Virus record (IMG/VR): IMGVR_UViG_2526164601_000026
Source: a virus
Lineage: Duplodnaviria > Heunggongvirae > Uroviricota > Caudoviricetes
Direction: 5' to 3' (one strand)
Length of the DNA: 25,836 nucleotides
The position numbers and the translations under genes are program-made. A model generated the notes under the pieces. That model made no database searches. It was not told the DNA's origin and saw only the letters and a list, made by a program, of their open reading frames with translations. Positions 1 through 16,399 of the stretch are shown here, in pieces. The first letter of the stretch is position 1, and each line of letters begins with the position of its first letter.

Positions 1-43
1 AAAAATTTTTATGTTTTCAGTATAAAATTTCTGTTCCCTTATC

Positions 44-535
44 CTACATATTATCCTGACAGTGGGGATACATAGAAGCATAGGAAAAAAGTACTAGATC
101 TAGTTCAAACGTTTCTTTCATGCCATCCATGGTTATGGAGGTACTCAGTAACCCACGATGGGCCAGAGATTCTACTCCAGTCATTGGGTTATCAAGCTTA
201 TTCATTTGCCCCCATGTCATAACTGAACTGCCATGTTTTACAAAGTGCATCACCACTTCTTTTTCACTGTCAGTTAGGGAGTGATAAAGCGCTGATAGTC
301 GATTTTTTGCGGCTTCCTCCTCTTTGCGGGTAATAATTCGCTGATAGATTCCTCCGGTTATAACTTTTACCACTGGAAAAGTTATAACAAAGGAAAATAA
401 CGTTATCACATTATCGGAATATATTAGATAACAGGTCAGTCCAACTATCCCGGATAGACATATGGCAATATTGATGCTAAAGTCTTTCTCCGAATAAACG
501 CGGCCAAATAGTTTTTCGAGAACATCTTCTATCAA
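44..535 (-). CDS. Small inner-membrane protein, possibly SieB-family superinfection exclusion protein
   Basis: 163-aa ORF with two N-terminal hydrophobic helices (INIAICLSGIVGLTCYLIY; ITLFSFVITFPVVKVITGGIY) followed by a charged soluble domain. Size, topology and position at the early-left end of a lambdoid prophage fit SieB-like proteins. Family assignment is from memory, not a search. Confidence 0.45.
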   Translation of the reverse strand: MIEDVLEKLFGRVYSEKDFSINIAICLSGIVGLTCYLIYSDNVITLFSFVITFPVVKVITGGIYQRIITRKEEEAAKNRLSALYHSLTDSEKEVVMHFVKHGSSVMTWGQMNKLDNPMTGVESLAHRGLLSTSITMDGMKETFELDLVLFSYASMYPHCQDNM

Positions 536-841
536 AGTTATACTCCTTGTTGGGTACTAAAGACGCTTGAATATACAGCTAACATTACTTTACTAGGGAT
601 AATAATTGATTTTCTTACCGAACTATGGGTACTGAACGCTTTGGCATCTTTTATTACAGGTGGTTACTGCTGATGGCATAAGAGTATTATCAGTATTGGT
701 AGAAAAATAAAACAGAAATTTTCTGTAATACCCCATTTATCAAGACGCCTTTATATTTCTAACGTCTGTATCTGGCTAAGGGGCAGTCAGGTTTAGAACT
801 GTGCAATAGTTGCGTTTGTTCGAATCCGGCGCGGCCACTGT

Positions 842-3133
842 TCAGTACATTCCGTCCCAGTCCGGACGGTTGGTTTTTTTATGATGAAACCCGTTTACAG
901 GACGCCCTGTCGGGTGGTTATTGTCCTGTGGAAGCGTTAACAGGTTTATACCTGCTCTTTCTGCTCTCACTGATATCTGATTTTCCTCTTTTGTTTCAGG
1001 TAGTTCTGGTCTGTTCAGCGTGATATAGCGAATTCGTCGATCTTCCCGTGTGGTCGTTTTTAGCGTATTCACCGCTGTTTCCCACAAGGCACTTTCACGT
1101 GCGTTGATATCCGTGTCGTACTCTTCCAGCATTGCCATAGCCGCCTGACGTCCTGCAATGCGTTGCTGGAATGTATCCACGATCGTGTGCGGCTCTGTGC
1201 GAATTTTTCGTCTTTTTCTGGAGGGTTTTGCAGTCAGGACGCCAATGATGGCACTGACATTTTCCGGTGACGGTATTCGACGTTGAGTAGTACGGGGAAC
1301 AAGACGGCGGAGACGGTCCAGGCGTGGCGCATCCACGCTGATATACCTGTTTATAACCACGGGATCGCTGCTGCAGCTTTTCTCATCGTCAGGGATGAAG
1401 AATGATGCTGATGGTACGGTTTCTCCCCGGAAAATAGAAAAGAACTCGCCAGGATGAAGTTCAATCAACTCCTGAACATTTATCTTGCTTTCCATTAGGA
1501 TGCTGATTTGTGGGCTGTCAATCCATGATTCACCAAATATGCCGTCCTGACGCTGTAGGTTGTTCATTCTCGCCCTGGCTTCTTCACCGGCGGCGCTTTT
1601 CAGCGTTCTGGCTGTACTACCCTCGCTGACAATCCTGCCGGCAAATTTTGTCCCCGTGTTCTGCATCAGTGTTGCAGTATTCGTGGCTGTTGTCTGTCCT
1701 TCTATACGTTCCTGGTCCTGTGCCATCAAAATCAGAGCAAAATCCAGTGAACGCACCTGAGTGGCTTCCACAGCAATACGGTCCGTATAGTATGCCCCCA
1801 CTTCATCAAGGAAACACAGATAAGGGAAACGCCCCTTATATTTTTTGACTTCCAGTGCATCGGAATCAGTTCCTTCGAGGCGGTAGCCCAAATCACGGGC
1901 GAGAATCATACTTTTCTGGGTGATAAACATTCGTCCAAGAGCAGACGTTGTATGCGCTGATGTATCCAGAGCGGGGATCATTACCATCAGAATCCTGTCG
2001 CTGTGAATGCTGTCACGGATATCGATATCACCGGAATCTTCAGCAAAAATATCCCCGAATGCTTCCGTGAATGTGCTGAAAGTTTCAGAAAACTGCCCGG
2101 AGAGATAAGCATGTTGTTTTCTGGGTTCTTCCGTCCAGGCTGATGGTGTCCTGACCAGCGACAGGTCGAAACCGGGAACGTCCTGAAGGTAGTTACGTAA
2201 CGGTGCGATAGCTTCTTCCGGCCACTGATCATCGAGGCCACGACAGTAAAGTTTGGCCATCCCTTCGAGAGTCATATGTTCACGGAGCATCTGCAGCGAC
2301 ATTGTTTTGCCTTCGCGCACACACCAGAATTTAGTACCAAATACCAGTGCCTTATTCATGGCAATGGCCCGGGACTGCCACTCGCCCCCCTGGACGTTCT
2401 GGGGCAGCATTGACTGCATTGTCTCCGCTGTGAATGCCTCAGTGCTGTAACAGAAGGGATTCCAGGTATTTGACTGAGGACGCGTTTTTTCACCACTCAG
2501 AATGATTTCACTGCGGGATTTTCCTCCGTTCATGAAGTTAATGACTTCCACATCGTCTTCACGTCCAAAGCGTCTGGCCAGATACCAGATCGTTCTTGCC
2601 GTATCATTCTGTGCCTTGCCATCGACAAGGGTGAATCCTCTTGCCCAGCAAAGTGGGTTAATCGCCCAGGCAAAGATGGTTTCCGTTTTACCGCCACCGG
2701 TGGTGGCGAAAAACATTATATGGCGGGTCAGATCGTCCATACTCAGCCATAACTCCCTGCCAATATCCCTGACGCGTTGATAACCAACATAGAATATGCC
2801 GCTGGCCGGTGATTCCAGAATGACCTCATACTGGAACAGGGTTGGCCAGAAGCTGAAAAGACTTCTTTTAATCATTCTGTCCTGTGACGGGTCAGCACAT
2901 TCCAGCGTCATGGGCATACGAAGAGGGCAGCGCCATCGCTGCAGACTAAATACCAGCATCGTTATCAGTGTGAACAACAGACATGCCGGTAATGCAAGTG
3001 GCCAGATAAAACTGGCCACAAGACTTGCCACCAGGCAAAAGCCATAGATATTGAGACTCTGGAGTGCATTCCAGACAGGATTTCCCCAGGCTGTACGGTG
3101 TAAAAGCTCGGGGTTAACGCGATGTTCACTCAT
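842..3133 (-). CDS. Type IV coupling protein-like P-loop ATPase (VirD4/TraD/DotL-like; resembles TrbC of IncI1 plasmids)
   Basis: 763-aa ORF. Two N-terminal TM helices (FCLVASLVASFIWPLALPACLLFTLITMLVFSL), Walker A FFATTGGGKTE, Walker B-like LCFLDEVG. Start overlaps the stop of the upstream gene by 8 nt, indicating translational coupling. Third gene of a three-gene operon. Confidence 0.7.
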   Translation of the reverse strand: MSEHRVNPELLHRTAWGNPVWNALQSLNIYGFCLVASLVASFIWPLALPACLLFTLITMLVFSLQRWRCPLRMPMTLECADPSQDRMIKRSLFSFWPTLFQYEVILESPASGIFYVGYQRVRDIGRELWLSMDDLTRHIMFFATTGGGKTETIFAWAINPLCWARGFTLVDGKAQNDTARTIWYLARRFGREDDVEVINFMNGGKSRSEIILSGEKTRPQSNTWNPFCYSTEAFTAETMQSMLPQNVQGGEWQSRAIAMNKALVFGTKFWCVREGKTMSLQMLREHMTLEGMAKLYCRGLDDQWPEEAIAPLRNYLQDVPGFDLSLVRTPSAWTEEPRKQHAYLSGQFSETFSTFTEAFGDIFAEDSGDIDIRDSIHSDRILMVMIPALDTSAHTTSALGRMFITQKSMILARDLGYRLEGTDSDALEVKKYKGRFPYLCFLDEVGAYYTDRIAVEATQVRSLDFALILMAQDQERIEGQTTATNTATLMQNTGTKFAGRIVSEGSTARTLKSAAGEEARARMNNLQRQDGIFGESWIDSPQISILMESKINVQELIELHPGEFFSIFRGETVPSASFFIPDDEKSCSSDPVVINRYISVDAPRLDRLRRLVPRTTQRRIPSPENVSAIIGVLTAKPSRKRRKIRTEPHTIVDTFQQRIAGRQAAMAMLEEYDTDINARESALWETAVNTLKTTTREDRRIRYITLNRPELPETKEENQISVRAERAGINLLTLPQDNNHPTGRPVNGFHHKKTNRPDWDGMY

Positions 3134-4196
3134 GGCCAGACTCGCTGTCGGTGGTTTTCAGGAATAAATTAAGCGTGCCAGTTTCCTGCAGAATTCCAGT
3201 AGGCAGATGCCAGCCCGTGTCGGACAGCACCCATGGGGTACCGGCAAATCCGAACTTACGGAAGGCGACATTGTTAACATCAATCGCAGCTCTGGCTGCT
3301 TTCAGGCATGTTTCATCTGCAGGCGTTGTTTCTTCTGATGGCGTCATCATTCCGTTATCTGCGGAATACAGTCGGTGCCAGCTGGCAGCACGTTTCTGAG
3401 CATCTTTTTCACACAGCAGTGGTGCCACACGGTCGGTGGATTCCTCTCCACCAATAACTGAAACCGGGTAGATAACGACATTGAAGTCGCTGGCCAGGCG
3501 TTTTAAGGCCGGCTCCAGAAGTCTGCAGTTAGGACAGGCAGGATCGAGAAATGCGAACAGGGTTCGTTCATGACCGGATGACAGGTTGATGGTAAACATG
3601 CCCCGATCGGCGTTCCGCTTCAGAACAGTAGCCAGATTATGTCGCGCAGCTGCGGCTTCCGGATTTTTGCTTGTGATTGTTTTCTCCGGTACCTGGACGT
3701 CTTTTTTCGGGGGAACCGGGAGTTGAATGCCTTCATTTAATGGCACAGTGTGATTCAGGTGAGGGGGAAGCAGTCGTGGCTCACCTGCTGTCTGTACTGC
3801 TTCAGGCGTTGTATCATCCCAGAATACACGATCAACATAGCGGAACAGAGAGAAGCCAATCGTTGCCATTACGAACAGCACAACGCTGGCGATTATGCCA
3901 CGGAACAAAGGTGTTCTGCTGAAGCGGCGTTCCATCAGATATTCAAGGCGCAGGCAGGAATCAATAGCTGTAAGTATCTGGTCAGCGTTATGCTCCTGTT
4001 TATCAATCAGGACGGTTTCTCTGTTACGGGTGCCCATGGCGTCAAAGGCTATATGAATCAGTTGATTATTTCGTGTTACCAGCCCTGACAGGGCATCCCG
4101 TGGAAGGACGGCAATAATTTCTGTCCTGCCATCCGGCCAGATTGCCTGCACGGAAATATGTTTTGCAATGCGTGTTGCAAAGTACTCGATTGTCAT
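3126..4196 (-). CDS. Membrane-anchored thioredoxin-fold protein with CxxC motif (DsbA/DsbC-like; TrbB-like)
   Basis: 356-aa ORF. Single internal TM helix (LFRGIIASVVLFVMATIGFSLF) and C-terminal FLDPACPNC thiol-disulfide motif. A GGAG RBS lies in the 18-nt spacer after the upstream gene. Confidence 0.65.
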   Translation of the reverse strand: MTIEYFATRIAKHISVQAIWPDGRTEIIAVLPRDALSGLVTRNNQLIHIAFDAMGTRNRETVLIDKQEHNADQILTAIDSCLRLEYLMERRFSRTPLFRGIIASVVLFVMATIGFSLFRYVDRVFWDDTTPEAVQTAGEPRLLPPHLNHTVPLNEGIQLPVPPKKDVQVPEKTITSKNPEAAAARHNLATVLKRNADRGMFTINLSSGHERTLFAFLDPACPNCRLLEPALKRLASDFNVVIYPVSVIGGEESTDRVAPLLCEKDAQKRAASWHRLYSADNGMMTPSEETTPADETCLKAARAAIDVNNVAFRKFGFAGTPWVLSDTGWHLPTGILQETGTLNLFLKTTDSESGHE

Positions 4197-4214
4197 TTTC
4201 AGTTCTCCGGATAA

Positions 4215-5423
4215 TCAGAATTCGTTGTCTGTAGCAGGTGTGCGGGGCAGGATGTCGTCGGTGAGGGACCAGTTGGTCAGGATGCGGCGTTTCCGGTCGC
4301 GATCTGGTTGTGGTTCATCCCAGATAAGACCGAGACTGAGCATATCCCGCCGTAAGCCTTCCACCGCTTCATCAACACAGGGTTCAGGGCAGGGAAGACC
4401 AAAACGCATGGCTTCGGCCTCTGCACGTGCAACGGCCACCACGCCAGCGCCTTCAATAAATCCTTTCGTGGTATTGGCGCGGTGTAATGCATAAAACAGC
4501 GTCCTGTCCACGCCTTTCAGCCAAATCCAGTTGGGTGGCGTAAGCCGCAGGTCATGTGCATACAGCCAGACCAGCCCACTGCGGACGTAGCGATGTTGTT
4601 TCAGCCATTGCTGTGCTCCGTTGCTTTTAATCACTCTCTGGAAAGCTGATTTGGCCAGTGAATAAACAGGGGTACAGAATTTCCCACTGTCCCGTTTGCT
4701 TTTAATTCTGCATGAGAGGTTCAGTGTATCCATGAGCTTTAATGCTGCCTTACGATCATCCAGGAAATACTGAAGACCAAATATGGCAAAGAGCGCTTTT
4801 TCATGTGGTGCCATGTCTTTCCAGGACGTTAAAGGTTTACCCAACTGGGCCATGAAACATCGTCTTGCAGCTGCAACATCGAGCTGCATATTGGTGATGA
4901 GAGTATGCTGCTCGACAAATGCTTCCGGGGTGAGAGCAACCCGCCGTTCAGGTCGTTTGCCACCATGAAAGAGTTTTTCCGGATCACCATCTGCCAGTAC
5001 AGGGGCGATAGCAGGGGACAACGAAGCAAAGATGTGTGGCAGTCGGGTAATATCTACTGGTCTGCGGGTGAAACGACTTTGTCCCGGATGTTGATACCAC
5101 TCCCACAAACACCAGAGTGTCACAGGTAAGAGGTACATCCACAGAATACCTATGGTCTGCTCCATGACGTTAACCCACTGGCTATAGCTTATGTTGGCGG
5201 CGTTGTTACCGGTCATGGCAAGCAGGTTGTATCGTGGTGCTGCATAGTTATGAAATGGTCCCCAGTCAACCAGTCCCCATAAGGTATGAAGAATCAGGCA
5301 GCTGGCGTAAACCACTTCCGGCAAGAATAACCATATAACGAATAGCAGCAGGATAAGAAGGACACCAACAGCGCCCCATATCTGCATAGGATCTTCTGCG
5401 ACAGGCTGTCGATTGTAAGACAT
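4215..5423 (-). CDS. Inner-membrane protein (DotM/IcmP-like; TrbA-like), first gene of the coupling-module operon
   Basis: 402-aa ORF. N-terminal TM helices (GAVGVLLILLLFVIWLFLPEVVYASCLILHTLWGLV; IGILWMYLLPVTLWCLW) then a soluble domain. GGAG RBS 8 nt upstream of ATG. Family assignment is by architecture and gene order only. Confidence 0.5.
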   Translation of the reverse strand: MSYNRQPVAEDPMQIWGAVGVLLILLLFVIWLFLPEVVYASCLILHTLWGLVDWGPFHNYAAPRYNLLAMTGNNAANISYSQWVNVMEQTIGILWMYLLPVTLWCLWEWYQHPGQSRFTRRPVDITRLPHIFASLSPAIAPVLADGDPEKLFHGGKRPERRVALTPEAFVEQHTLITNMQLDVAAARRCFMAQLGKPLTSWKDMAPHEKALFAIFGLQYFLDDRKAALKLMDTLNLSCRIKSKRDSGKFCTPVYSLAKSAFQRVIKSNGAQQWLKQHRYVRSGLVWLYAHDLRLTPPNWIWLKGVDRTLFYALHRANTTKGFIEGAGVVAVARAEAEAMRFGLPCPEPCVDEAVEGLRRDMLSLGLIWDEPQPDRDRKRRILTNWSLTDDILPRTPATDNEF

Positions 5424-5583: not shown

Positions 5584-7366
5584 AGCGTTTTGTGGACGGT
5601 ATACAGCAGAAAGCCCCTGGAGATTTTTTTATCAATCAACCAAGGGCTCTACTGTAATGCCTAGACAACATTATAGTAGCCCGATAACCGCCGGAAGGCA
5701 ATGGAGGGGCTATGATGTGTTAACACCAAGCTGTAATGTCCCCTTTCGTAACCATTCTAAAATGTCCCCACGACAATTCTCTGGGGGAGTTTTTCTATGA
5801 TCAAAGAGACTGTTACGATGAGTCATAAGGAACTCCACCGACTTCAGATTATTCAGGAGTCAATTAATCGACATATTACTCAGGAACAAGCTGCGGCACG
5901 CATTGGCATTTCTATTCGGCAGGTTAAACGTCTGGTGCAACGGTATAGAAATGAAGGGCCTTCTGGTCTGGTTTCCCCCCGACGTGGAAAGCGTCCTAAT
6001 AATTCCTTTCTACTGATTCAGAGCAACAGTAATTTCACTCCTCAAAGGCCGTTACGCTGATTTTGGACCTACGTTTGCGTGCGAAAAATTGCGTGAGATA
6101 CACGGTTTATCTTTATCCGTTGAAACTCTCAGAAAGTGGATGATAGAAGAGGGGTTATGGCGTGAACGCCGTCGTAAAATTGCCCGTATATATCAACGCC
6201 GCATGCGACGACCATCTTACGGTGAACTGATCCAGATTGATGGCTCACCTCATGACTGGTTTGAAAATCGAGGCCCCAGATGTACACTGATCGTTTTCAT
6301 TGATGATGCCACCAGTGCGTTGATGGCGTTGCGTTTTGTGCCTGCTGAAACAACCCGGGCTTACATGGAAACCCTCCGGGGTTACCTTAATGATCATGGC
6401 GTACCGCTCGCTCTCTACTCTGATAGACACAGTATATTCAGGGTAAATAACCCAGAGCGGGAAGGTGAGCTGACCCAGTTCACTCGTGCGATAAAGACAC
6501 TGGGCATCGAGCCAATCCATGCCAACAGCCCGCAGGCAAAAGGGCGGTAGAGCGCGCCAATCAGACACTACAGGACAGGCTGGTCAAAGAAATGCGGCTT
6601 CAGAATATCAGTGATATTGAAACAGCAAATGCATGGTTGCCGACCTTTATTGAAGCCTATAACAACCGGTTCGCTACGTCGCCTCGTACTACTGATAATG
6701 CTCATCTTGATGTGCACCATTCTGAAGAGGAACTGGGTTATATCTTCAGCCTACAGGCGAAGCGCGTTCTGTCTAAAAATCTCACTTTCCAGTACAAAAG
6801 CAGTGCGTTTCAGGTACGCAGTGAGGGCCGGGGATATCGACTTAGGCATTCGGTTGTTACTGTATGCGAGAACTTTGACGGTGAAATTAACGTTCTGTAT
6901 GACGGGAAAGCGCTGGGCTGGGAAAAGTATGTTGATGGCCCGGAGCCTATACCACTGGATGATGAAAAGAGTGTCCATGAACGAGTGGATAATGCCCGTA
7001 TTGATTTACGCTCAAAATACTATGTTAAACCTAAAGCTGACCATCCCTGGCTTACGCGCCGAACGCAAAGTCATCAGCAAGTTAAGCCCCCGAAGTTACC
7101 TAAAAAGAAGCCTGATCCCGATAAAAAAGATTGAAACCAAGATCGATTCGGTTGAGTGCATATCCATTCATAGGGTAGATTCTTAAGTCGCGTTTCTGGT
7201 GTTCATTTTCGGGTGGTTTGTTACTTGTTTTACCGGGGATATGCCAGAAACGCGCTGAGTCAGTCTGGGCGGTGCGCGTAATGAGGCGTTATGGCAAATA
7301 GCCTATGCTAATGTCCGCTAAGAGCAAGAAGCGGAAGTTGGCAGTTTGTGGACTGTCCCCACAAAA
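5584..7366 (+). mobile_element. Degenerate insertion sequence (approximate boundaries)
   Basis: Encloses the frameshifted transposase. Imperfect inverted similarity between the left end (gttttgtggacgg, ~5584) and the reverse complement of the right end (ttttgtggggacag, ~7345-7366). Boundaries are uncertain and no target-site duplication was identified. Confidence 0.3.
5797..7134 (+). pseudogene. DDE (rve-type) transposase with N-terminal HTH, split into three frames by two frameshifts
   Basis: ORFs 5797-6060, 6089-6550 and 6592-7134 are consecutive pieces of one ~445-aa transposase (HTH ...IGISIRQVKRLVQRY...; integrase core ...LIQIDGS...IVFIDDATS...). Frame breaks near 6035-6060 (T run) and 6545-6552 (gggcggtag, G run). 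Family guess ISNCY/IS481-like, not verified. Confidence 0.65.
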
Positions 7367-7532
7367 GTGACTACAGAAATAGTTGCAATTCATAATTGAT
7401 CATGGGTTGTCAGTTAAACTCGTGGCGATTTAAATAGACTAATTGGGAGTGCGTCCATTACTTATATCTTGTAATGTTAACTATCAGAAATGATACAAAG
7501 ATAATATGTCTTTAAAGAAAAGGCTGATGGCG

Positions 7533-7555
7533 AAAAGTGGCCCGATGAGGGCCAC
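7533..7555 (-). terminator. Putative rho-independent terminator downstream of flxA
   Basis: Hairpin gtggccc-gatga-gggccac, followed on the minus strand by TTTTCGCC. Confidence 0.35.
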
Positions 7556-7565
7556 AATACGGCTG

Positions 7566-7901
7566 TCACTTAGACGTAAATATCAATGGTGCCAGCGGTA
7601 TTTGTATCGTCTTTTTCTCTTCTTTTTTATCAGGCTGAACTGTCGCGTCTTCATTCTTTTTCTCTGCCTGCTGCCTTAACAACTGCTCCAGTTGAGCCCA
7701 GAGGCTTTCAATTTGCTTCTGTACCAATGCAGCCATTTCTTTTTTCTGCTGTGTCGTCATCCCCTCTTCCGATGAGATTTTCCCAAGCTTTTCAGTCAGC
7801 ACCTGAATTTGTCTTGTGATTTTGGCTATTTCTGATGTTCCTTCCGGGGCGGAGTTGTTTGAAATAACGGTTGAGGTATTTCCCTGAATTGTGACAGACA
7901 T
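7566..7901 (-). CDS. flxA: FlxA-like protein (prophage gene of the flagellar regulon)
   Basis: 111-aa ORF (MSVTIQGNTSTVISNNSAPEGTSEIAKITRQ...) matching my recollection of Qin-prophage FlxA. AGGAG RBS 7 nt upstream of ATG. Sigma-28 promoter immediately upstream. Confidence 0.65.
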   Translation of the reverse strand: MSVTIQGNTSTVISNNSAPEGTSEIAKITRQIQVLTEKLGKISSEEGMTTQQKKEMAALVQKQIESLWAQLEQLLRQQAEKKNEDATVQPDKKEEKKTIQIPLAPLIFTSK

Positions 7902-7924
7902 AGATTTCTCCTTTTAAAAAAGCA

Positions 7925-7951
7925 CTATCGGCATGCACAAAAAAATCTTTA
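7925..7951 (-). promoter_or_regulatory. Sigma-28 (FliA)-type promoter for flxA
   Basis: Minus strand reads TAAAGATT-N11-GCCGATAG against consensus TAAAGTTT-N11-GCCGATAA. The -10 element ends about 24 nt upstream of the flxA ATG. Confidence 0.55.
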
Positions 7952-8397
7952 ATCGTATTTCTTGTGTCATTAATTGTTTGATGTTCAGATTGTTTTCCTC
8001 GCGGGCTGGCGCGCCTCAGAAAGTAAAGCTTGTTGACAGGGGTAAACGTTCGGCAATAATTTTCTGCCGCATGCGGGTGTTGCATAAAACGTGCTACGTT
8101 CCTTTATCGACAGGTCAGGTCACCGCTCACCCGCCGACGAGAAAGCAACACTGACATGCTAAAGCAAAAAATAGATGAATAAGTTGAGTTGTGCATATGT
8201 AGCCTGACCGTCACAAAGTATATGGTGTCTGTACCAGTAAGATGATGGCCGGACTCTTTAAAAACGAGCTGACCTGCACAATACAGGATTGGACTTAGCA
8301 ATGGCTGCTCCTGGCACAAAGCGGACAGTGATCACCGTTCTTACGACTACTTTCTGACTTCCTTCGTGACTTGCCCTAAGCATGTTGTAGTGCGATA

Positions 8398-8424
8398 CTT
8401 GTAATGACATTTGTAATTACAAGA
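8398..8424 (+). promoter_or_regulatory. relBE operator/promoter region
   Basis: gtaatgacatttgtaattacaagagg, with the palindrome ttgtaattacaa, directly upstream of the relB ATG; matches the known relO architecture. Confidence 0.45.
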
Positions 8425-8434
8425 GGTGTAAGAC

Positions 8435-8673
8435 ATGGGTAGCATTAACCTGCGTATTGACGATGAACTTAAAGCGCGTTCTTACGCCGCGCTTGAAAAA
8501 TGGGTGTAACTCCTTCTGAAGCGCTTCGTCTCATGCTCGAGTATATCGCTGACAATGAACGCTTGCCGTTCAAACAGACACTCCTGAGTGATGAAGATGC
8601 TGAACTTGTGGAGATAGTGAAAGAACGGCTTCGTAATCCTAAGCCAGTACGTGTGACGCTGGATGAACTCTGA
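8435..8673 (+). pseudogene. relB: RelB antitoxin, frameshifted as given (A5 run at 8496-8500)
   Basis: Translation MGSINLRIDDELKARSYAALEKWV then stop. The rest of RelB (GVTPSEALRLMLEYIADNERLPFKQTLLSDEDAELVEIVKERLRNPKPVRVTLDEL) continues in the +1 frame. One A appears to be missing relative to the K-12 gene as I recall it. Confidence 0.75.
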
Positions 8674-8961
8674 TGGCGTATTTTCTGGATTTTGACGAGC
8701 GGGCACTAAAGGAATGGCGAAAAGCTGGGCTCGACGGTACGTGAACAGTTGAAAAAGAAGCTGGTTGAAGTACTTGAGTCACCCCGGATTGAAGCAAACA
8801 AGCTCCGTGGTATGCCTGATTGTTACAAGATTAAGCTCCGGTCTTCAGGCTATCGCCTTGTATACCAGGTTATAGACGAGAAAGTTGTCGTTTTCGTGAT
8901 TTCTGTTGGGAAAAGAGAACGCTCGGAAGTATATAGCGAGGCGGTCAAACGCATTCTCTGA
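8673..8961 (+). pseudogene. relE: RelE mRNA-interferase toxin, frameshifted as given (A4 run at 8720-8723)
   Basis: ATG overlaps the relB stop (ATGA). MAYFLDFDERALKEWRK, then the frame is lost; the remainder (...KKKLVEVLESPRIEANKLRGMPDCYKIKLRSSGYRLVYQVIDEKVVVFVISVGKRERSEVYSEAVKRIL) is in another frame (ORF 8749-8961). Confidence 0.75.
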
Positions 8962-9032
8962 ACCAAAGCATGACATCTCTGTTTCGCACCGAAGGTGACA
9001 CTTCTGCTTTGCGTTGACAGGAGAAGCAGGCT

Positions 9033-9188
9033 ATGAAGCAGCAAAAGGCGATGTTAATCGCCCTGATCGTCATCTGTTTAACCGTCATAGTGACGGCACT
9101 GGTAACGAGGAAAGACCTCTGCGAGGTACGAATCCGAACCGGCCAGACGGAGGTCGCTGTCTTCACAGCTTACGAACCTGAGGAGTAA
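9033..9188 (+). CDS. hokD: Hok-family type I toxin (HokD/RelF-like)
   Basis: 51-aa ORF MKQQKAMLIALIVICLTVIVTALVTRKDLCEVRIRTGQTEVAVFTAYEPEE, with a single TM helix. Sits downstream of relBE as in the Qin prophage. Confidence 0.8.
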   Translation: MKQQKAMLIALIVICLTVIVTALVTRKDLCEVRIRTGQTEVAVFTAYEPEE

Positions 9189-9255
9189 GAGACCAGGCGG
9201 GGGAGAATCCCTCGCCACCTCTGATGTGTCAGGCATCCTCAACGCACCCGCACTT

Positions 9256-9282
9256 AACCCGCTTCGGCGGGTTTTGTTTTTT
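9256..9282 (+). terminator. Rho-independent terminator (3' end of hok transcript)
   Basis: aacccgc-ttcg-gcgggtt hairpin followed by TTGTTTTTT. Confidence 0.5.
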
Positions 9283-9354
9283 CCTAGCATTCTGGTTTAC
9301 AATTCGCACGCCAGCCTGAACAACTGGCACCTGCTGCGCCAGCAGAGACAACCG

Positions 9355-9633
9355 ATGGCGCACGATACCAAATTACACAATTCTGATGATTCTGCCGTCT
9401 TTGCCAGCAGGCACGGGCGGCGTTCCCGCACTTTCAAATCTGACTGGTTCCAGCATCCCCCATGCACTGAAGAACAGGCCGAGTGGCTAATTCAGTGCTA
9501 CCGCAGACACGGATACGAGATTAAGAAAGCCCTCAGCCTCGATTATCGTCACTGGATAATCTCCGTCAGGCTTCCTTACTCCGAGCGCCCACCGCGTCCG
9601 TCCCGCACATTCCAGCAACGCATCTGGAGGTAA
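9355..9633 (+). CDS. Rem-like small prophage protein
   Basis: In-frame ATG downstream of the hok terminator; MAHDTKLHNSDDSAVFASRHGRR.... The track ORF 9226-9633 would read through the terminator, so the shorter start is preferred. Position matches rem in Qin; function unknown. Confidence 0.4.
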   Translation: MAHDTKLHNSDDSAVFASRHGRRSRTFKSDWFQHPPCTEEQAEWLIQCYRRHGYEIKKALSLDYRHWIISVRLPYSERPPRPSRTFQQRIWR

Positions 9634-9634
9634 C

Positions 9635-10684
9635 GTGCGGGTATTACTTCGACCTGTTCTGGTACCGGAACTCGGGCTGGTGATCGTTAAGCCGGGCCGT
9701 GAATCCATGCCGGTATTCCACAATACCCGGGTACTGGTGGAGCCGGAACCGAAAAGCATGCGTAATCTGCCGTCCGGGGTTGTTCCTGCCGTTCACCAGC
9801 CGCTAGTGGAAGACAAAACATTGCTGCCGTTTTTCAGTAACGCACGGGTGATTCGTGCTGCTGGTGGTGCTGGTGCATTGTCTGACTGGCTGTTGCGCCA
9901 TATTAAATCCTGCCAGTGGCCACACGGCGATTATCATCACAGCGAAACCGTCATTCACCGTTATGGTACCGGCGCAATGGTGTTGTGCTGGCACTGCGAC
10001 AACCAGCTGCGTGACCAGACATCCGAATCACTCGAGCAACTTGCTCATCAAAACCTGTCAGCATGGATGATTGACGTCATCGGTCACGCAATAAGCGGTA
10101 CGCAGGAGCGTGAATTATCTCTGGCTGAATTATCCTGGTGGGCGGTCTGCAATCAGGTGGCGGACGCGCTTCCGGAGGCAGTATTACGTCGTTCTCTGGG
10201 GTTACGTGCGGAAAAAATCCGCCCCTTGTACCGCGAAAGCGACATCGTACCGGGAGAGCAGACCGCCATCAGCATACTGAAACAGCGCACAAAAAATCTT
10301 GCGCCGCTGCCTCACGCCCACCAGCAACAGAACCCACCACAGGAAAAGACGGTGGTCAGCATTGCCGTTGATCCTGAGCCTCCGGAATCTTTCATGAAAC
10401 GACCTAAACGTCGCCGCTGGGTTAACGAGAAATACACACGCTGGGTGAAGACACAGCCGTGTGCGTGTTGTGGTAAGCCAGCCGACGATCCCCATCACCT
10501 GATTGGTCATGGTCAGGGCGGAATGGGGACAAAATCTCACGATATTTTCACGCTACCGCTGTGTCGGGAGCATCACAACGAGCTTCATGCGGATCCGCTG
10601 GCGTTCGAAGAAAAGCATGGTTCTCAGGTTGATTTAATTTTTCGTTTTCTTGATCACGCCTTTGCAACTGGCGTGCTTGGGTAA
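9635..10684 (+). CDS. DUF968/YdfU-like protein with HNH-like Cys/His motif
   Basis: 349-aa ORF with C-terminal CACCGKPADDPHHLIGHG...CREHHNELH motif. Position between rem and rusA/Q as in Qin-type prophages. Confidence 0.6.
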   Translation: MRVLLRPVLVPELGLVIVKPGRESMPVFHNTRVLVEPEPKSMRNLPSGVVPAVHQPLVEDKTLLPFFSNARVIRAAGGAGALSDWLLRHIKSCQWPHGDYHHSETVIHRYGTGAMVLCWHCDNQLRDQTSESLEQLAHQNLSAWMIDVIGHAISGTQERELSLAELSWWAVCNQVADALPEAVLRRSLGLRAEKIRPLYRESDIVPGEQTAISILKQRTKNLAPLPHAHQQQNPPQEKTVVSIAVDPEPPESFMKRPKRRRWVNEKYTRWVKTQPCACCGKPADDPHHLIGHGQGGMGTKSHDIFTLPLCREHHNELHADPLAFEEKHGSQVDLIFRFLDHAFATGVLG

Positions 10685-10696
10685 AAGAGGTGACTG

Positions 10697-11053
10697 ATGC
10701 TCATAGATTTGGTTTTACCTTACCCGCCGACGGTGAACACTTACTGGCGACGCCGTGGCAGCACATATTTTATCTCGGAGGAGGGAAAGCGTTATCGCCG
10801 GGCTGTGGCGCTTATTGTTCGCCAGCAGCGGCTGAAATTAAGCCTGTCCGGAAGGCTGGCGATAAAGGTGATTGCAGAGCCACCGGATAAGCGTCGTCGC
10901 GACCTGGACAACATTCTGAAAGCACCGCTGGATGCGCTGACGCATGCGGGAGTGTTAATGGACGATGAGCAGTTTGATGAAATCAATATCGTTCGTGGTC
11001 AGCCAGTATCTGGTGGACGTCTGGGGGTGAAGATTTACCCCATAATGCATTAA
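10697..11053 (+). CDS. rusA: RusA-family Holliday junction resolvase
   Basis: 118-aa ORF containing the RusA-like core RRRDLDNILKAPLDALTHAGVLMDDEQ. AAGAGG RBS upstream. Confidence 0.75.
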   Translation: MLIDLVLPYPPTVNTYWRRRGSTYFISEEGKRYRRAVALIVRQQRLKLSLSGRLAIKVIAEPPDKRRRDLDNILKAPLDALTHAGVLMDDEQFDEINIVRGQPVSGGRLGVKIYPIMH

Positions 11054-11067
11054 GAGCAGGTCAAAAA

Positions 11068-11889
11068 ATGAAACTGGAAGATTTACCGAAATACTACTCC
11101 CCAAAATCCCCTGGCCTGACCGATGCATCGGCCTCAACGTCAAAAGATGCGCTGAGTATCACTGATGTGATGGCCGCGCAGGGCATGACACAGAATCGGG
11201 CTGAGATGGGTTTTTCTGCGTTCCTGGGGAAAATGGGCATCAGTATGAATGACAGGGCGCGGGCAACAGAATTACTGGCAGATTATGCACTCAGTCGGTG
11301 CGATCGTGTGGCGGCGTTGAGAAAACTTCCGGCAGAAATAAAACCGGTAGTGATGCGCATTATGGCTTCGTACGCTTTTGAGGATTATGCCCGCAGCGCA
11401 GCGAGTAAAAAGCAGTGCCCTTGTTGCTATGGGGAAAAATTTATTGAAAGCATAGTTTTTACAAACAAGGTCCAGTATCCGGATGGTAAGCCGCCGGTAT
11501 GGGCAAAGTGTACGAAAGGTGTGTATCCGTCTTACTGGGAAGAATGGAAAAAAGTCAGGGAGGTGGTAAAAGTTGCCTGTCCGGAGTGTGGCGGAAAGGG
11601 TGAGGTTTCCACCGCCTGTAAGGATTGCCGTGGGCGTGGTGTCGCCATTCATCGTGAAGAGTCGGTAAAACGTGGTATGCCTGTTATCAGAGACTGCCAG
11701 CGTTGTGGTGGTCGTGGCTATGAAAGACTACCATCAACGGAGGCATTTAATGCTATATGCGAGGTGACAAACCAGATAACACGCGCGTCATGGGAAAAAA
11801 CAGTTAAGAAATTTTATGATGCGCTGGTGACCCGGTTTGATATTGAAGAAGCATGGGCTGAGCGGCAGTTAAAAAAGGTAACTAGGTAA
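11068..11889 (+). CDS. Late-gene antiterminator Q-like protein
   Basis: 273-aa ORF with Cys-rich zinc-binding motifs (CPECGGKGEVSTACKDCRGRG; CQRCGGRG). Located immediately upstream of the PR'/tR'-like region and the tRNAs. Confidence 0.6.
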   Translation: MKLEDLPKYYSPKSPGLTDASASTSKDALSITDVMAAQGMTQNRAEMGFSAFLGKMGISMNDRARATELLADYALSRCDRVAALRKLPAEIKPVVMRIMASYAFEDYARSAASKKQCPCCYGEKFIESIVFTNKVQYPDGKPPVWAKCTKGVYPSYWEEWKKVREVVKVACPECGGKGEVSTACKDCRGRGVAIHREESVKRGMPVIRDCQRCGGRGYERLPSTEAFNAICEVTNQITRASWEKTVKKFYDALVTRFDIEEAWAERQLKKVTR

Positions 11890-11894
11890 CAAGG

Positions 11895-11922
11895 TTGATT
11901 TTTCCGGAATCTGTGGTAAATT
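11895..11922 (+). promoter_or_regulatory. Candidate late promoter PR' (sigma-70 type)
   Basis: TTGATT-16 nt-TAAATT just downstream of Q stop and about 50 nt upstream of a terminator. Confidence 0.35.
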
Positions 11923-11969
11923 CGTCATAACGATGGGCGTTTTATGCCTGACGTTAGAAGAGTTTCTAC

Positions 11970-11995
11970 AACCCGCCGCTGAGCGGGTTTTTTAT
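11970..11995 (+). terminator. tR'-like rho-independent terminator
   Basis: aacccgc-cgctga-gcgggtt hairpin followed by TTTTTTATT. Confidence 0.5.
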
Positions 11996-12032
11996 TGCGA
12001 AATTAATTACGGACCGTTATTATTCTGCTCCC

Positions 12033-12108
12033 GGCCCTTTAGCTCAGTGGTGAGAGCGAGCGACTCATAATCGCCAGGTCGCTGGTTCAAATCCAGCAAG
12101 GGCCACCA
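12033..12108 (+). tRNA. ileZ: tRNA with CAU anticodon, ileX/ileZ-like (tRNA-Ile2)
   Basis: 76-nt cloverleaf: acceptor GGCCCTT/AAGGGCC, D-arm GCTCAGTGGTGAGAGC, anticodon loop CTCATAA, T-arm GCTGGTTCAAATCCAGC, encoded CCA. Closer to ileX than to elongator Met. Confidence 0.85.
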
Positions 12109-12209
12109 TCACAAACCGCCATTAGCTTATCAGGAAGAGCAGACGACACGATAACAGGGTTGTTGGTGCGGGGGGCGGGTCCCCGATGGCGATCCATTAT
12201 CGGTATTCA

Positions 12210-12286
12210 GCGTTGTTAGCTCAGCCGGACAGAGCAATTGCCTTCTAAGCAATCGGTCACTGGTTCGAATCCAGTACAGCGCGCCA
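12210..12286 (+). tRNA. argO: tRNA-Arg (UCU anticodon)
   Basis: 77-nt cloverleaf: acceptor GCGTTGT/ACAGCGC, anticodon stem-loop ATTGC-CTTCTAA-GCAAT, T-arm ACTGGTTCGAATCCAGT, encoded CCA. Confidence 0.85.
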
Positions 12287-12396
12287 TATTCATTCTTCCA
12301 GATTCCTTCCGGCAGAGCCTTATACTGAAATATACCTGGCTCAGGATATTGTTGAAAATATTATATGTTTGTCAAAAATAAAAGTTCTGTTAAGTA

Positions 12397-12750
12397 TTGA
12401 TTGAATATTTGTTATACGGTCTAATGGTTTTTTCAGCATTAAATATTTATCATTCATATGGTGTGGGTAGAGTGAATATTGATGAGGCGTCGGGGTGTTT
12501 CATCCTTAGGCAGCGTATTGATATAGTCAATGCAGCACGAGCAAAGGCCTTCAGCCGTTTGACAGTTTTGTTCTGTACTCCTGATCGTCTTTCGGGAAGA
12601 GACGTTATTATTCTGAATAGTGATGCTATACAGAGGGTTTGCGATGAGTTCATGGTTGCTAATTCAGAATTATTTGCTCTTGTTCAGGAGTACAACAGAA
12701 TAGCCAGGACCTGTGGTATGGATGAACTTCGGATTACTCATCTGGGGTAG
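12397..12750 (+). CDS. Hypothetical protein (cargo gene downstream of phage tRNAs)
   Basis: 117-aa ORF starting at TTG; the first ATG is at 12424. No clear RBS and no family recognised. AT-rich context. Confidence 0.3.
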   Translation: MIEYLLYGLMVFSALNIYHSYGVGRVNIDEASGCFILRQRIDIVNAARAKAFSRLTVLFCTPDRLSGRDVIILNSDAIQRVCDEFMVANSELFALVQEYNRIARTCGMDELRITHLG

Positions 12751-13141
12751 ATACATATCTGGATTATCACCTGTTACGGTAAAAAGTGATTGCTTACTGT
12801 TTTTGTGAATGGCATTGCAGCAGCCGGATAATGTCAGTGCTGGCTGACGGTGTGCTGGTGGCGGGTGTGGTGGTTGTTGCTTTCCCGTTGCTGAAAAAGA
12901 AAACGCCAGACTGTTAGCCGGGTATCAGTTAGCGGGAGAAATTTTTAAATACTTCACAATTCAGGCGGTTGACTGTTGTCTGGTTTGCGGGGAGTTTGTT
13001 AAAAGAAACTGGCATGGTGAATCCCCCTGTGCGGAGGGGCAATCAGCGAGTAGGTATATGGGATAATCGCGGATTCAGGTGCTGGTACTGAATTCACCGG
13101 GAGGCACCCGGCACCATGCAATGGCACATAGCGCCACTCTC

Positions 13142-13178
13142 CAGCCCCTCTCCGGAGGGGCTGTTTATATTGATTTTG
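13142..13178 (+). terminator. Rho-independent terminator-like hairpin
   Basis: cagcccctc-tccg-gaggggctg GC-rich stem followed by TTTATATTGATTTTG. Confidence 0.4.
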
Positions 13179-13197
13179 TCAGATGTGAGTAAACTCC

Positions 13198-13533
13198 TTA
13201 TGGATTTTGTTGTTTTAGCCCATAAGGACATATTTGCAGAGTGCAACGGTTATTAAAGCATTCATTCAATACGTTATCTGTATTTGTAGGGCATTCCTGG
13301 CTGTTTTTGATTAAATTCCAGAATGTTTTATTGAATGGTACTATGTTGTAAATGGTTACAGGTAGCACTTTGTTATTGAGCATGATACCTGTGTGAGTCA
13401 GTGTAAATATACTTTCAGGAGGTAAGAAAGCATCCGATTGATACCAGATTATTAATTTTATTTTACTCCATATGACTGAAAAAGATATTCCGCATGATGG
13501 CTGGATAACTGTATCAATCACAATCCACTTCAT
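13198..13533 (-). CDS. Hypothetical Cys-containing protein (AT-rich cargo gene)
   Basis: 111-aa ORF with AAGGA RBS 7 nt upstream of ATG. Strongly AT-rich; no recognisable family. Confidence 0.45.
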
Positions 13534-13777
13534 TTACTTTCCTTGTTTATGCCTTGCTGGTGATGTTCTGAAAAGTATAAATGATATTTTTGAATTAAAC
13601 CATAGAGCAGAATTATTTTTCTGATGTTGTTTATTGTTTATTTAAATACAGGGTGGTTTATATCTCGTCTTGTAGTTTATCCATGCATATCTGCTTGATA
13701 ATCAGGTTTTTATTTAAGGTATGGTTTTGTGTTTTTTCTGTATTACATGTCAGGTATTTTAAAGAATTATTTTTCAG

Positions 13778-15685: not shown

Positions 15686-15857
15686 AAGGCCTTATATGTT
15701 TGTAGATGATACTTATATTTGGCAGTACATTTTCTGACAGACAGTGACGGGTGTTGTCAAGATATTGTGTCATTTATAACCTGAATCAGGGGGGCCGGAA
15801 TGTTATCTGGCATTTTTAGCAGAGCCTGAATGCCATAATCACGGCTCCCGGAGTTGG

Positions 15858-15892
15858 CCGTCAGTGGGTGACACTGGCGGTTTTTTTGTTTT
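15858..15892 (+). terminator. Rho-independent terminator upstream of lysis cassette
   Basis: ccgtcagtg-ggtga-cactggcgg hairpin followed by TTTTTTTGTTTTT. Confidence 0.5.
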
Positions 15893-15937
15893 TCTTTACT
15901 TTCATTTTCTGTCGGCGGTGACGGAGACATACATCAG

Positions 15938-16144: not shown

Positions 16145-16399
16145 TCGATGAATAAACAATACGAACTGGTTGTAAAATGAATATTTCTAACTGAAAAAAC
16201 GTTCCATGAGGTAAGAAAAGGTCACAGGCAATCAATAACAGGACGTGATGAAAGACCCTTGCATTTGTGCGCTTTCTCTTTAGATAGCAGCAGATACTGA
16301 AAATCTGAGTTGTCGGGGAGTCAGGGATACAGCTGTGCAAGAGTTGGTCATTGTGATTCCATTGAAATCCTGTATGCCATGAAGGGCAGGATTTTATGG

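What the first reader, a model, noticed from the sequence alone, without database searches (positions are those of the whole stretch)
44..535. SieB-like membrane protein adjacent to the coupling module
A 163-aa two-TM protein with a charged cytoplasmic tail sits 306 bp downstream of the coupling-ATPase operon, on the same strand. If it is a superinfection exclusion factor, the four genes 44-5423 may form a single exclusion/defence island at the prophage early-left end.
Basis: inference. Interest (0 to 1): 0.4.

Follow-up and report, generated by a model that had tools for sequence, protein, structure and literature searches.

The report
SieB-like cargo gene on IncI plasmid
A small membrane protein distantly related to the phage exclusion protein SieB sits on a phage-derived cassette inserted between two transfer genes of an IncI conjugative plasmid; it is a probable but untested anti-phage gene, and the genes beside it are ordinary conjugation genes, not a prophage defence island.

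Summary
The ORF at 44-535 (minus strand, 163 aa, TTG start, good Shine-Dalgarno) is a real gene under purifying selection (dN/dS 0.16-0.31). It has two transmembrane helices followed by a confidently predicted cytoplasmic winged-helix domain.

The setting is not a prophage. The window is the transfer region of an IncI-type conjugative plasmid (pDEC9B-1, 100% identity). Genes 842-5423 are trbC/trbB/trbA, the DotL/DotM-like coupling complex that IncI1 plasmids need for transfer.

The ORF lies on a roughly 0.9-kb AT-rich insertion in the nikB/trbC terminator, flanked by a 21-bp direct repeat. About 1,340 IncI plasmids lack it.

"SieB-like" holds as remote homology only:
- The protein itself is below the Pfam SieB threshold (15.3 bits against 26).
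- A 36%-identical relative passes it (33.6 bits).
- 33 of 88 family members give sub-threshold SieB hits.
- The profile-profile score against lambda SieB (37.0) exceeds all 200 shuffles (maximum 23.5).

Homologues occupy moron or defence-hotspot slots in lambdoid and P2-like phages. In 55 other IncI plasmids the same nikB-trbC slot holds a DUF2971 gene that matches the defence candidate PDC-S31.

The most likely function is SieB-type abortive exclusion of phages. This is inferred, not shown. It is a new member of a known kind, of modest interest.

The parts
44..535 (-). Coding sequence of a 163-aa SieB-superfamily inner-membrane protein. Layout: N-terminal amphipathic helix (2-15), TM1 (19-39), TM2 plus basic linker (42-85), acidic winged-helix domain (~86-146).
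543..548 (-). Shine-Dalgarno AAGGAG, 7 nt upstream of the TTG start.
   Evidence: Read from the sequence. AAGGA is conserved in all 8 aligned cassettes.
536..776 (-). Conserved ~240-nt leader that travels with the gene. It is probably a promoter plus a long 5' UTR; its function is unknown.
   Evidence: Conserved at DNA level in 8 loci from unrelated contexts, with conservation starting abruptly at window ~778. No Rfam family. No excess folding stability, z +0.30. Leader mini-ORFs are not conserved.
750..778 (-). Candidate sigma-70 promoter of the cassette: TAGCCA (778-773), 17 nt, TATAAA (755-750). Prediction only.
   Evidence: Read. It sits exactly where cross-locus conservation begins. The promoter scan did not list it because its -10 hexamer lacks the final T.
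1..821 (.). AT-rich inserted segment: 884 bp in all, running 62 bp beyond the left end of the window. It is absent from canonical IncI1 plasmids. Its core (window ~13-776) is a phage-type moron cassette.
   Evidence: R64 has nikB and trbC 36 bp apart. Megablast of 1-900 matches ~1,436 plasmids only from 822 onward. GC is 36-42% against 47-57% in the flanks. The segment is 79.3% identical over 782 nt to a P2-like prophage locus, L017.
822..842 (.). Right-hand copy of a 21-bp direct repeat, GAATCCGGCGCGGCCACTGTT, that flanks the insertion. It is half of the nikB/trbC bidirectional terminator hairpin and overlaps the trbC stop codon by one base. The other copy, with the intact hairpin and T-run, lies 63-83 bp left of window position 1.
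   Evidence: the repeat finder family D2, two copies at 100% identity, 905 bp apart. Sequences. The intact minus-strand terminator is at pDEC9B-1 locus L003 19931-19907.
842..5423 (-). Neighbours, not part of the element: trbC (842-3133), trbB (3126-4196) and trbA (4215-5423), the IncI T4BSS coupling-complex and transfer genes. The insertion now separates their original terminator from trbC, so read-through into the ORF is possible.
   Evidence: NCBIfam TrbC_conju 1043 bits. TrbA hits Pfam DotM_C at E 1.6e-49. TrbB has only weak thioredoxin-like Pfam hits and is named from the record annotations. Required for transfer (PMC4288162). No minus-strand terminator predicted between 536 and 841.

Best explanation
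The ORF encodes a diverged member of the SieB superfamily. It is an inner-membrane helical hairpin with a short conserved N-terminal helix and a cytoplasmic, acidic winged-helix domain.

The gene belongs to a ~0.78-kb self-contained cassette (leader plus gene). Elsewhere this cassette occupies 'moron' or defence-hotspot slots in temperate phages. Here it was captured once by an IncI-type conjugative plasmid, in the terminator between the convergent nikB and trbC genes.

Proposed function, by analogy and not shown: the protein acts alone as an abortive-infection or exclusion factor, as P22 and lambda SieB do. The cytoplasmic winged-helix domain would sense a phage product, more likely a protein than DNA because the domain is acidic. 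The membrane hairpin and N-terminal helix would then shut down the cell envelope and energy supply, so macromolecular synthesis stops before progeny are made. That would protect the plasmid's host population.

The gene probably has its own weak promoter and a poor start codon (TTG or GTG). Because it now lies between trbC and the trbC terminator, it is probably also transcribed by read-through from trbABC.
For: Shown:
- Real, constrained gene.
- Plasmid context and insertion anatomy.
- The exact protein occurs in 404 blocks of draft assemblies. All 24 contigs read have the same trbC-ORF-nikB arrangement.

SieB kinship:
- Recurrent PF14163 hits, 9/14 and 33/88 members.
- Bridging relatives above the Pfam cut-off.
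- hhalign E 3.2e-5 against the lambda SieB family and 1.8e-4 against P22 SieB.
- 0 of 200 shuffles reached the score.
- Shared order of N-terminal GRV(Y/F)S motif, two TM helices, basic linker and 'LTxxE' winged helix.
- Fold match to the P22 protein.

Phage and defence association:
- End of lambdoid prophages after the tail-fibre assembly gene.
- Phage Ayreon, between stf and int.
- P2-like phages, between V and S and between G and FI. The latter is the Z/fun locus, a recognised P2 defence hotspot (PMC13586616).
- Raoultella/Klebsiella islands, next to DUF2971/PDC-S31, Gabija-like and NERD-helicase genes.
- In 55 other plasmids the same nikB-trbC slot carries a DUF2971/PDC-S31 gene.
- IncI plasmids are known carriers of phage-inhibition genes ibfA and pifA (PMC8004404).

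The SieB phenotype used for the analogy is described in PMC10883804.
Against: - No functional data exist for any member of this subfamily; every source calls it hypothetical.
- There is no PADLOC hit.
- The window protein itself fails the Pfam SieB cut-off. hhalign probability is only 73%. Direct HMM scores to lambda and P22 SieB are low, 17 bits or less.
- The SieB mechanism is itself unknown, so 'works like SieB' has little mechanistic content.
- The gene is not at the sieB position beside N/24 in the PL region, and no Esc-like internal start or sas-like antisense RNA was identified.
- Guilt by association at moron slots does not separate defence from other lysogenic-conversion functions.
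- The promoter and read-through are predictions from sequence only.
Confidence: 0.6

Rival explanations
1. It is a phage moron with a function other than defence. For example, a membrane-tethered winged-helix protein might sequester or regulate a host or phage factor (lysogenic conversion, envelope stress, regulation of the carrier element) without excluding phages.
For: The C-terminal domain has a winged-helix fold like the MarR/ArsR/TubR regulators. The gene has a long conserved leader that suggests regulation. There is no PADLOC hit. Moron slots also carry non-defence cargo (established knowledge).
Against: The winged helix is acidic in 98% of 88 members, mean net charge -3.9, which is atypical for DNA-binding regulators. 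The only recurrent family signal is SieB. Neighbours in islands and slot-mates are defence candidates.
Confidence: 0.22
2. It is an accessory of the IncI conjugation machinery, co-transcribed with trbABC. It might be an adaptor of the TrbC/TrbA coupling complex, or an entry- or surface-exclusion factor against related plasmids.
For: It is on the same strand as trbC and lies between trbC and the original trbC terminator, so read-through is likely. It is an inner-membrane protein, as T4CP partners are.
Against: It is absent from about 1,340 IncI plasmids with an intact nikB-trbC junction, which include transfer-proficient plasmids such as R64 and pESBL. Homologues sit in phages and chromosomal islands with no conjugation genes. 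The plasmid already has excA. The cassette brings its own leader from phage contexts.
Confidence: 0.06
3. One reading: genes 44-5423 form a single four-gene exclusion/defence island at the early-left end of a prophage.
For: The genes share a strand and are close together. TrbC gives a PADLOC mad8 domain-level hit, E 2e-16. The window also holds Qin-prophage-like genes (ydfW, flxA, ydfV, relBE, hok), which may give a prophage impression.
Against: The window is 100% identical to plasmid pDEC9B-1, inside the IncI transfer region between nikAB and the excA/traY genes. trbABC are conserved conjugation genes required for transfer. The ORF is a separate insertion with different GC content, its own leader and flanking repeats.
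Confidence: 0.02
4. It is a hitch-hiking or decaying remnant with no current function on the plasmid.
For: It has a poor TTG start codon. The window copy has a 10-nt deletion in a leader stem that the other seven cassettes keep. It represents a single insertion event.
Against: The ORF is intact and full length relative to all homologues. The identical protein is maintained in 404 blocks of assemblies. dN/dS is 0.16-0.31. Most homologues also use weak GTG starts, so a weak start is a family trait.
Confidence: 0.1

Closest known systems
SieB of phages P22 and lambda (Pfam PF14163, 'Super-infection exclusion protein B')
   Same: Similar size: 163 aa against 183-192 aa. Same order of parts: conserved N-terminal segment (LFGRVYSEKDF here, ILGRVFSNEPL in lambda), hydrophobic membrane segments (two clear helices here, less clear-cut by hydropathy in lambda and P22 SieB), basic linker, then a domain opening with 'SLT-x-x-E' and a '(S/E)L-x-x-(R/K/L)G-(L/I/V)-(L/I)' helix. 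Significant profile-profile similarity. Relatives pass the Pfam cut-off. Carried by temperate phages as a single gene.
   Different: Sequence identity is about 20%. The window protein is below the Pfam threshold. The loop between the TM helices is ~3-5 residues here and ~15-20 in lambda and P22 SieB. The gene is not located beside N/24 in the PL region, but in late-region or att-proximal moron slots, in islands and, here, in a plasmid transfer region. No Esc-like internal start or sas antisense RNA is evident. No phenotype is known.
Single-gene membrane morons and P2 hotspot genes at the same phage positions (HK97 gp15; P2 Z/fun, tin, old)
   Same: The positions match: downstream of tail-fibre genes in lambdoid phages, and between G and FI in P2-like phages. 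All are AT-rich self-contained cassettes. Z/fun is cited as a P2 defence locus in PMC13586616. HK97 gp15 is cited as a superinfection-exclusion moron in the reference list seen.
   Different: No sequence relationship was found or tested beyond position. HK97 gp15 blocks DNA entry, whereas SieB-type proteins abort infection after entry (own knowledge, and PMC10883804 for SieB).
Phage-inhibition genes of IncI1 plasmids (ibfA, pifA)
   Same: These are plasmid-borne single genes that inhibit phages and change phage type (PMC8004404). They are a precedent for anti-phage cargo on this plasmid family.
   Different: They lie in the leading/accessory region near repZ-rfsF, not in the transfer region, and they are unrelated proteins. 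No similarity was observed.
DUF2971 / PADLOC PDC-S31 cargo gene in the nikB-trbC slot of other IncI-gamma/K1 plasmids
   Same: It occupies the same intergenic slot between the nikB and trbC stop codons. It is an AT-rich single gene with its own terminator and is present in 55 conjugative plasmids. A DUF2971/PDC-S31 gene is the immediate neighbour of the SieB-like gene in Raoultella/Klebsiella islands.
   Different: It is an unrelated soluble protein on the opposite strand (co-directional with nikB). It replaces the terminator hairpin rather than duplicating part of it.
ExcA/ExcB surface exclusion of IncI1 plasmids
   Same: It is a plasmid-encoded exclusion function with a membrane protein in the same transfer region (excA is at window ~10860-11474).
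   Different: It acts against incoming related plasmids, not phages. No similarity was found. ExcA is present as well, so the ORF is not a replacement.

Membership tests
SieB (Pfam PF14163) | Score at or above the curated Pfam gathering threshold (26 bits) | tested here: not met
   The window protein scores 15.3 bits, E 0.016, residues 47-108 against profile positions 43-99 of 147. None of the 14 close homologues reaches the threshold; the best E is 1.4e-4.
SieB (Pfam PF14163) | Homology to accepted members, by transitive or profile-profile comparison | tested here: met
   P0048 (36% identical, BLASTP E 3e-23) scores 33.6 bits on PF14163, and P0039 scores 26.3 bits. 33 of 88 family members hit SieB at E<=0.01, while no other family recurs in more than 2. 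hhalign against the lambda SieB family gives score 37.0, E 3.2e-5, probability 73%. 200 column shuffles gave mean 13-14 and maximum 23.5.
SieB (P22/lambda) | Architecture: N-terminal membrane-spanning helices followed by a cytoplasmic C-terminal domain | tested here: met
   Two hydropathy peaks. AlphaFold2 model at pLDDT 94.5 shows a TM hairpin plus winged helix. The alignment to lambda and P22 SieB runs through the linker and the C-terminal domain. The best query-normalised TM-score among the 50 BFVD matches listed (0.44) is to a 195-aa P22 N-operon protein. sieB is the only ORF of at least 150 aa in that region of P22.
SieB (P22/lambda) | Genomic position: own promoter, opposite strand, between N/24 and ral in the PL region of a lambdoid prophage | tested here: not met
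   Here the gene is in a plasmid transfer region. Homologues lie at the late-operon end, the att side, or P2 hotspots.
SieB (P22) | Self-immunity: an in-frame internal start producing Esc, regulated by the sas antisense RNA | tested here: inconclusive
   P22 esc starts at codon 25 of sieB. By inspection, the window ORF has no ATG, GTG or TTG in frame between codons 2 and 42; the first is GTG at codon 43. No Rfam match. Absence of such a device cannot be proved from sequence.
SieB (P22/lambda) | Phenotype: aborts lytic growth of superinfecting phages, with macromolecular synthesis stopping in mid-cycle | not testable with these tools
   The phenotype is described in PMC10883804. No experimental data were found for this subfamily.
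Known anti-phage defence systems (PADLOC-DB 2.0.0) | Match to any catalogued defence protein model | tested here: not met
   No families at E<=1 for the ORF.
IncI trbABC transfer operon / T4BSS coupling complex | Conserved presence with trbABC across IncI plasmids | tested here: not met
   Only 1 of ~1,440 PLSDB records that match the trbC end carries the ORF. 1,342 of 1,602 records have an uninterrupted nikB-trbC junction.
Winged-helix DNA-binding regulators (MarR/ArsR/TubR-like) | Winged-helix fold together with a basic DNA-binding surface | tested here: inconclusive

The most novel reading that the evidence does not exclude
Two linked ideas remain possible.

(1) The terminator between the convergent nikB and trbC genes may be a dedicated single-gene cargo slot of the IncI plasmid backbone, repeatedly filled with anti-phage genes taken from phage hotspots. 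It holds the SieB-like gene here and DUF2971/PDC-S31 in 55 other plasmids.

(2) Placing the SieB-like gene between trbC and its terminator may couple its expression to derepression of transfer. Donor cells that display IncI pili, and are therefore exposed to pilus-specific and other phages, would then be pre-armed with an abortive-infection sensor. That sensor would be a membrane-tethered acidic winged helix that recognises a phage protein.
Probability: 0.12. Interest if true: 0.6.

Novelty: new member of a known kind. Interest (0 to 1): 0.3.

Why it matters
If the exclusion function is confirmed, three things follow.
- SieB-type abortive infection would extend to an uncharacterised, Pfam-invisible branch of at least 136 cluster representatives.
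- A confident structural template would exist for a 50-year-old system whose mechanism is still unknown: a two-TM hairpin plus an acidic winged helix.
- It would document a phage-to-conjugative-plasmid transfer of a defence cassette into a previously unremarked slot inside the IncI transfer region. IncI plasmids are major vehicles of ESBL and virulence genes in E. coli and Salmonella, and phage resistance they confer affects phage typing and phage therapy.

If it is not confirmed, this is simply a rare hypothetical cargo gene.

Tried and rejected
- Prophage context: rejected. The window is 100% identical to an IncI plasmid transfer region.
- trbABC as defence genes: rejected, on family assignments and TnSeq essentiality for transfer. 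The PADLOC mad8 hit of TrbC is a generic TraD/VirD4-type ATPase similarity.
- PHROGs, NCBIfam and PADLOC scans of the ORF gave nothing meaningful.
- Structured RNA or riboswitch in the conserved leader: no support. There is no Rfam hit. The window leader folds no better than shuffles, z +0.30. The RNAalifold consensus is weak, with a positive covariation term.
- Conserved leader peptide: frames and stops are not conserved.
- Looking for the donor of the non-cassette flanks: exact-pattern scans of genome contigs and metagenome contigs found nothing.
- The search for related loci on genome contigs with alignment A1 returned no confirmed locus.
- The third word-indexed protein search, with alignment A2, added no new relatives and none with PF14163.
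- The afdb50 fold library was unavailable.
- Direct HMM searches between the family and lambda or P22 SieB gave only low scores, so the homology claim rests on bridging members, profile-profile comparison and fold.
- Transposon-type insertion: no transposase and no terminal inverted repeats of an IS. The 24-nt imperfect inverted repeat at window 24-47 / 699-722 was judged probably chance in AT-rich DNA.
- My first run of the hhalign shuffle control timed out with no output. It was repeated in parallel with 200 shuffles.

Full report
**1. The observation**

The ORF listing finds the ORF at 44..535 on the minus strand: 163 aa with a TTG start. An AAGGAG Shine-Dalgarno lies 7 nt upstream. RefSeq annotates the same CDS as a hypothetical protein.

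The gene is real:
- 18 close homologues (58-99% identity) exist in Enterobacterales.
- A profile of 14 of them finds 136 cluster representatives at E<=1e-3, 79 of them at E<=1e-10, in 1.84 billion proteins.
- Nei-Gojobori dN/dS against four homologues is 0.16-0.31.
- Hydropathy gives two TM peaks at residues 20-38 and 43-61.

**2. Where it is**

The window is not a prophage. Positions 1-830 are 100% identical to two E. coli plasmids, pDEC9B-1 (NZ_CP074761.1) and NZ_CP074821.1, and to nothing else in 5,426 complete E. coli genomes.

The annotated neighbourhood is the IncI transfer region: psiB, ardA, nikA and nikB to the left; trbC, trbB, trbA, hok/pnd, excA and traY to traR to the right.

The 763-, 356- and 402-aa proteins are TrbC, TrbB and TrbA:
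- TrbC scores 1043 bits on NCBIfam TrbC_conju, cut-off 800.
- TrbB has only weak thioredoxin-like Pfam hits and is named from the record annotations.
- TrbA hits Pfam DotM_C at E 1.6e-49.

These are the DotL/DotM-type coupling proteins of the IncI type IVB conjugation system. TnSeq on an IncI1 plasmid classed all three as required for transfer (PMC4288162).

**3. The ORF is a later insertion**

In R64, nikB (+) and trbC (-) converge with 36 bp between them. That gap is a GC-rich hairpin serving as a bidirectional terminator.

Megablast of window 1-900 against 72,556 plasmids hits 1,437 records, but all except one (CP057591.1, IncI-gamma/K1) match only from position 822 onward.

In pDEC9B-1, 884 bp of 36-42% GC DNA (flanks 47-57%) lie inside this terminator. 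They are flanked by a perfect 21-bp direct repeat, GAATCCGGCGCGGCCACTGTT, which is the right arm of the hairpin plus 6 nt.

This has a consequence for transcription. On the minus strand, trbC is now followed by only half a hairpin. The intact hairpin with its T-run lies downstream of the ORF. No minus-strand terminator is predicted between trbC and the ORF. Read-through from trbABC into the ORF is therefore plausible (inference).

The exact protein is indexed in 404 blocks of public assemblies. All 24 contigs read show the same trbC-ORF-nikB arrangement. This points to one insertion event that spread with a plasmid lineage.

**4. The cassette comes from the phage world**

The segment at window ~13-776 is 79.3% identical over 782 nt to a locus in a P2-like prophage, where it sits between baseplate gene V and tail gene S.

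Other homologues lie in these places:
- Between tail-fibre assembly gene G and sheath gene FI in two IMG/VR P2-like contigs. This is the Z/fun locus, named as a P2 defence locus in PMC13586616.
- At the end of lambdoid prophages next to prfC, after the tail-fibre assembly gene, in 39 of 5,426 E. coli genomes.
- Between stf and int in the isolated temperate phage Ayreon. This is the only hit among 50,697 phage records.
- Next to a lambda-type integrase (L028).
- In Raoultella/Klebsiella islands, beside a DUF2971 gene matching PADLOC candidate PDC-S31 (E 2e-36), Gabija-like genes and a NERD/helicase giant.
- Alone in a Sodalis chromosome.

About 240 nt upstream of the start codon travel with the gene in 8 loci. 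Conservation begins abruptly at a candidate promoter: TAGCCA, 17 nt, TATAAA (window 778-750).

**5. What the protein is**

With the 88-member alignment, AlphaFold2 gives pLDDT 94.5. The model has these parts:
- helix 2-15;
- TM helix 19-39;
- a long helix 42-85, which is TM2 plus a basic linker;
- a helix-strand-helix-helix-hairpin domain at 89-146.

The domain is acidic: net -4 here, and at most 0 in 98% of 88 members. The linker is basic. This fits a cytoplasmic location, and argues for protein binding rather than DNA binding (inference).

Residues conserved in at least 80% of members are Y14/E16/D18, Y36/D41, F53, E91/F98/G102, S123/L124/R127 and L145.

**6. Is it SieB-like?**

Directly, the answer is no: PF14163 scores 15.3 bits against a cut-off of 26. 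Several other lines point to distant homology:
- SieB is the only recurrent family among relatives, in 9 of 14 and 33 of 88 members.
- P0048 is 36% identical to the window protein (BLASTP E 3e-23), scores 33.6 bits, and carries PF14163 in the precomputed tables. P0039 scores 26.3 bits.
- hhalign of the family against 13 lambda-type SieB proteins gives score 37.0, E 3.2e-5, probability 73%, over 121 columns from the N-terminal motif to the winged helix.
- 100 global and 100 local column shuffles of the SieB alignment gave means of 13-14 and a maximum of 23.5.
- P22 SieB alone aligns over the C-terminal domain at E 1.8e-4.
- In BFVD, the highest query-normalised TM-score among the 50 matches listed (0.44, probability 0.99) is to a 195-aa P22 'N operon' protein. 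The only ORF of at least 150 aa in that part of P22 is sieB.

I conclude that this is a diverged branch of the SieB superfamily that the Pfam model does not capture.

**7. Function**

P22 SieB stops macromolecular synthesis midway through the lytic cycle of superinfecting P22-like phages (PMC10883804). Its mechanism is unknown. By homology and genomic association, the best reading is a single-gene abortive-infection or exclusion factor carried as plasmid cargo.

IncI plasmids already have a record of such genes, namely ibfA and pifA (PMC8004404). P2 hotspot genes are reported to exchange with plasmids (PMC13586616).

The steps from sensing to membrane shutdown are inferred, not shown. There is no PADLOC match and no experiment for any member.

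**8. A by-product: the slot**

Of 1,602 plasmids matching the R64 nikB-trbC junction, 1,342 have it intact. In 55 conjugative plasmids the intergenic hairpin is replaced by a ~1-kb AT-rich segment. That segment encodes a DUF2971 protein matching PADLOC PDC-S31 at E 8e-12. The same protein family neighbours the SieB-like gene in Raoultella islands. The nikB-trbC terminator therefore looks like a small recurrent cargo slot for defence-type genes. I did not make a full census.

**9. Verdict**

- 'SieB-like' is supported as remote homology.
- 'Prophage early-left end' and 'four-gene island' are rejected.
- Novelty: a new, uncharacterised member of a known kind, in an unusual place.
- Interest is modest (0.3). 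It would be higher if the slot and read-through ideas were confirmed.

Noticed in passing
L039 3119-3937 (CP093082.1); L040 (NZ_CP098198.1); same slot as window 1-841: In 55 conjugative IncI-gamma/K1-type plasmids, the nikB-trbC intergenic hairpin is replaced by a ~1-kb AT-rich segment. It encodes a DUF2971 protein that matches PADLOC defence candidate PDC-S31 (E 8e-12). 1,342 of 1,602 plasmids have the junction intact. The slot may be a recurrent cargo site for defence-type genes.
   Followed up: partly
window ~5813-9184: Between trbA and the pnd/hok region lie a truncated, frameshifted IS1202-like ISEsa1 transposase and a block of Qin-cryptic-prophage-type genes (ydfW, flxA-like, ydfV, relB, relE, hok). 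These are absent from R64 at this place, and probably explain why the window looked like a prophage.
   Followed up: no
window 536-776 (minus strand); alignment A6: The ~240-nt leader upstream of the gene is conserved in 8 unrelated loci, without an Rfam match, excess folding energy or a conserved mini-ORF. A GC(A/G)TCTT motif occurs after the putative -10 hexamer and again just before the Shine-Dalgarno, where RNAalifold pairs it with AAGGAG. The window copy has a 10-nt deletion in a 13-bp stem that the other seven keep.
   Followed up: partly
window 822-842 and 63-83 bp left of window position 1 (L003 19917-19937): The insertion is flanked by a perfect 21-bp direct repeat made of half the terminator hairpin. 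This is too long for a usual target-site duplication, and no transposase or integrase is associated. The insertion mechanism is unexplained.
   Followed up: partly
window 842-3133 (TrbC): TrbC matches the PADLOC model mad8 (MADS system) at E 2e-16 over residues 125-535. I read this as a shared TraD/VirD4-type ATPase domain rather than evidence of defence.
   Followed up: no
L011-L015 (Raoultella/Klebsiella loci), around 6000-16500: The chromosomal homologue sits in a variable island. The island holds DUF2971/PDC-S31, an unannotated 267-aa protein, YfbU-like genes, an AAA_15 plus UvrD-helicase pair (Gabija-like) and a protein of at least 1,650 aa with NERD, kinase and helicase domains.
   Followed up: no
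L024 6850-8877 (minus strand): In one P2-like IMG/VR contig, the Z/fun-position slot holds the SieB-like gene together with a 675-aa NERD-domain protein that has no PADLOC match.
   Followed up: no
window ~10553-10762: pDEC9B-1 annotates a 210-bp hha (haemolysin expression modulator) gene on the minus strand next to excA. R64 annotates a 210-bp 'HEAT repeat' ORF on the other strand at the corresponding place. This may be an annotation conflict or a real difference.
   Followed up: no
tool behaviour: the search for related loci on genome contigs with alignment A1 confirmed no locus, although homologues exist in NCBI genomes of Sodalis, Edwardsiella, Cronobacter, Raoultella and Pantoea. These may not be the species-representative genomes.
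   Followed up: no
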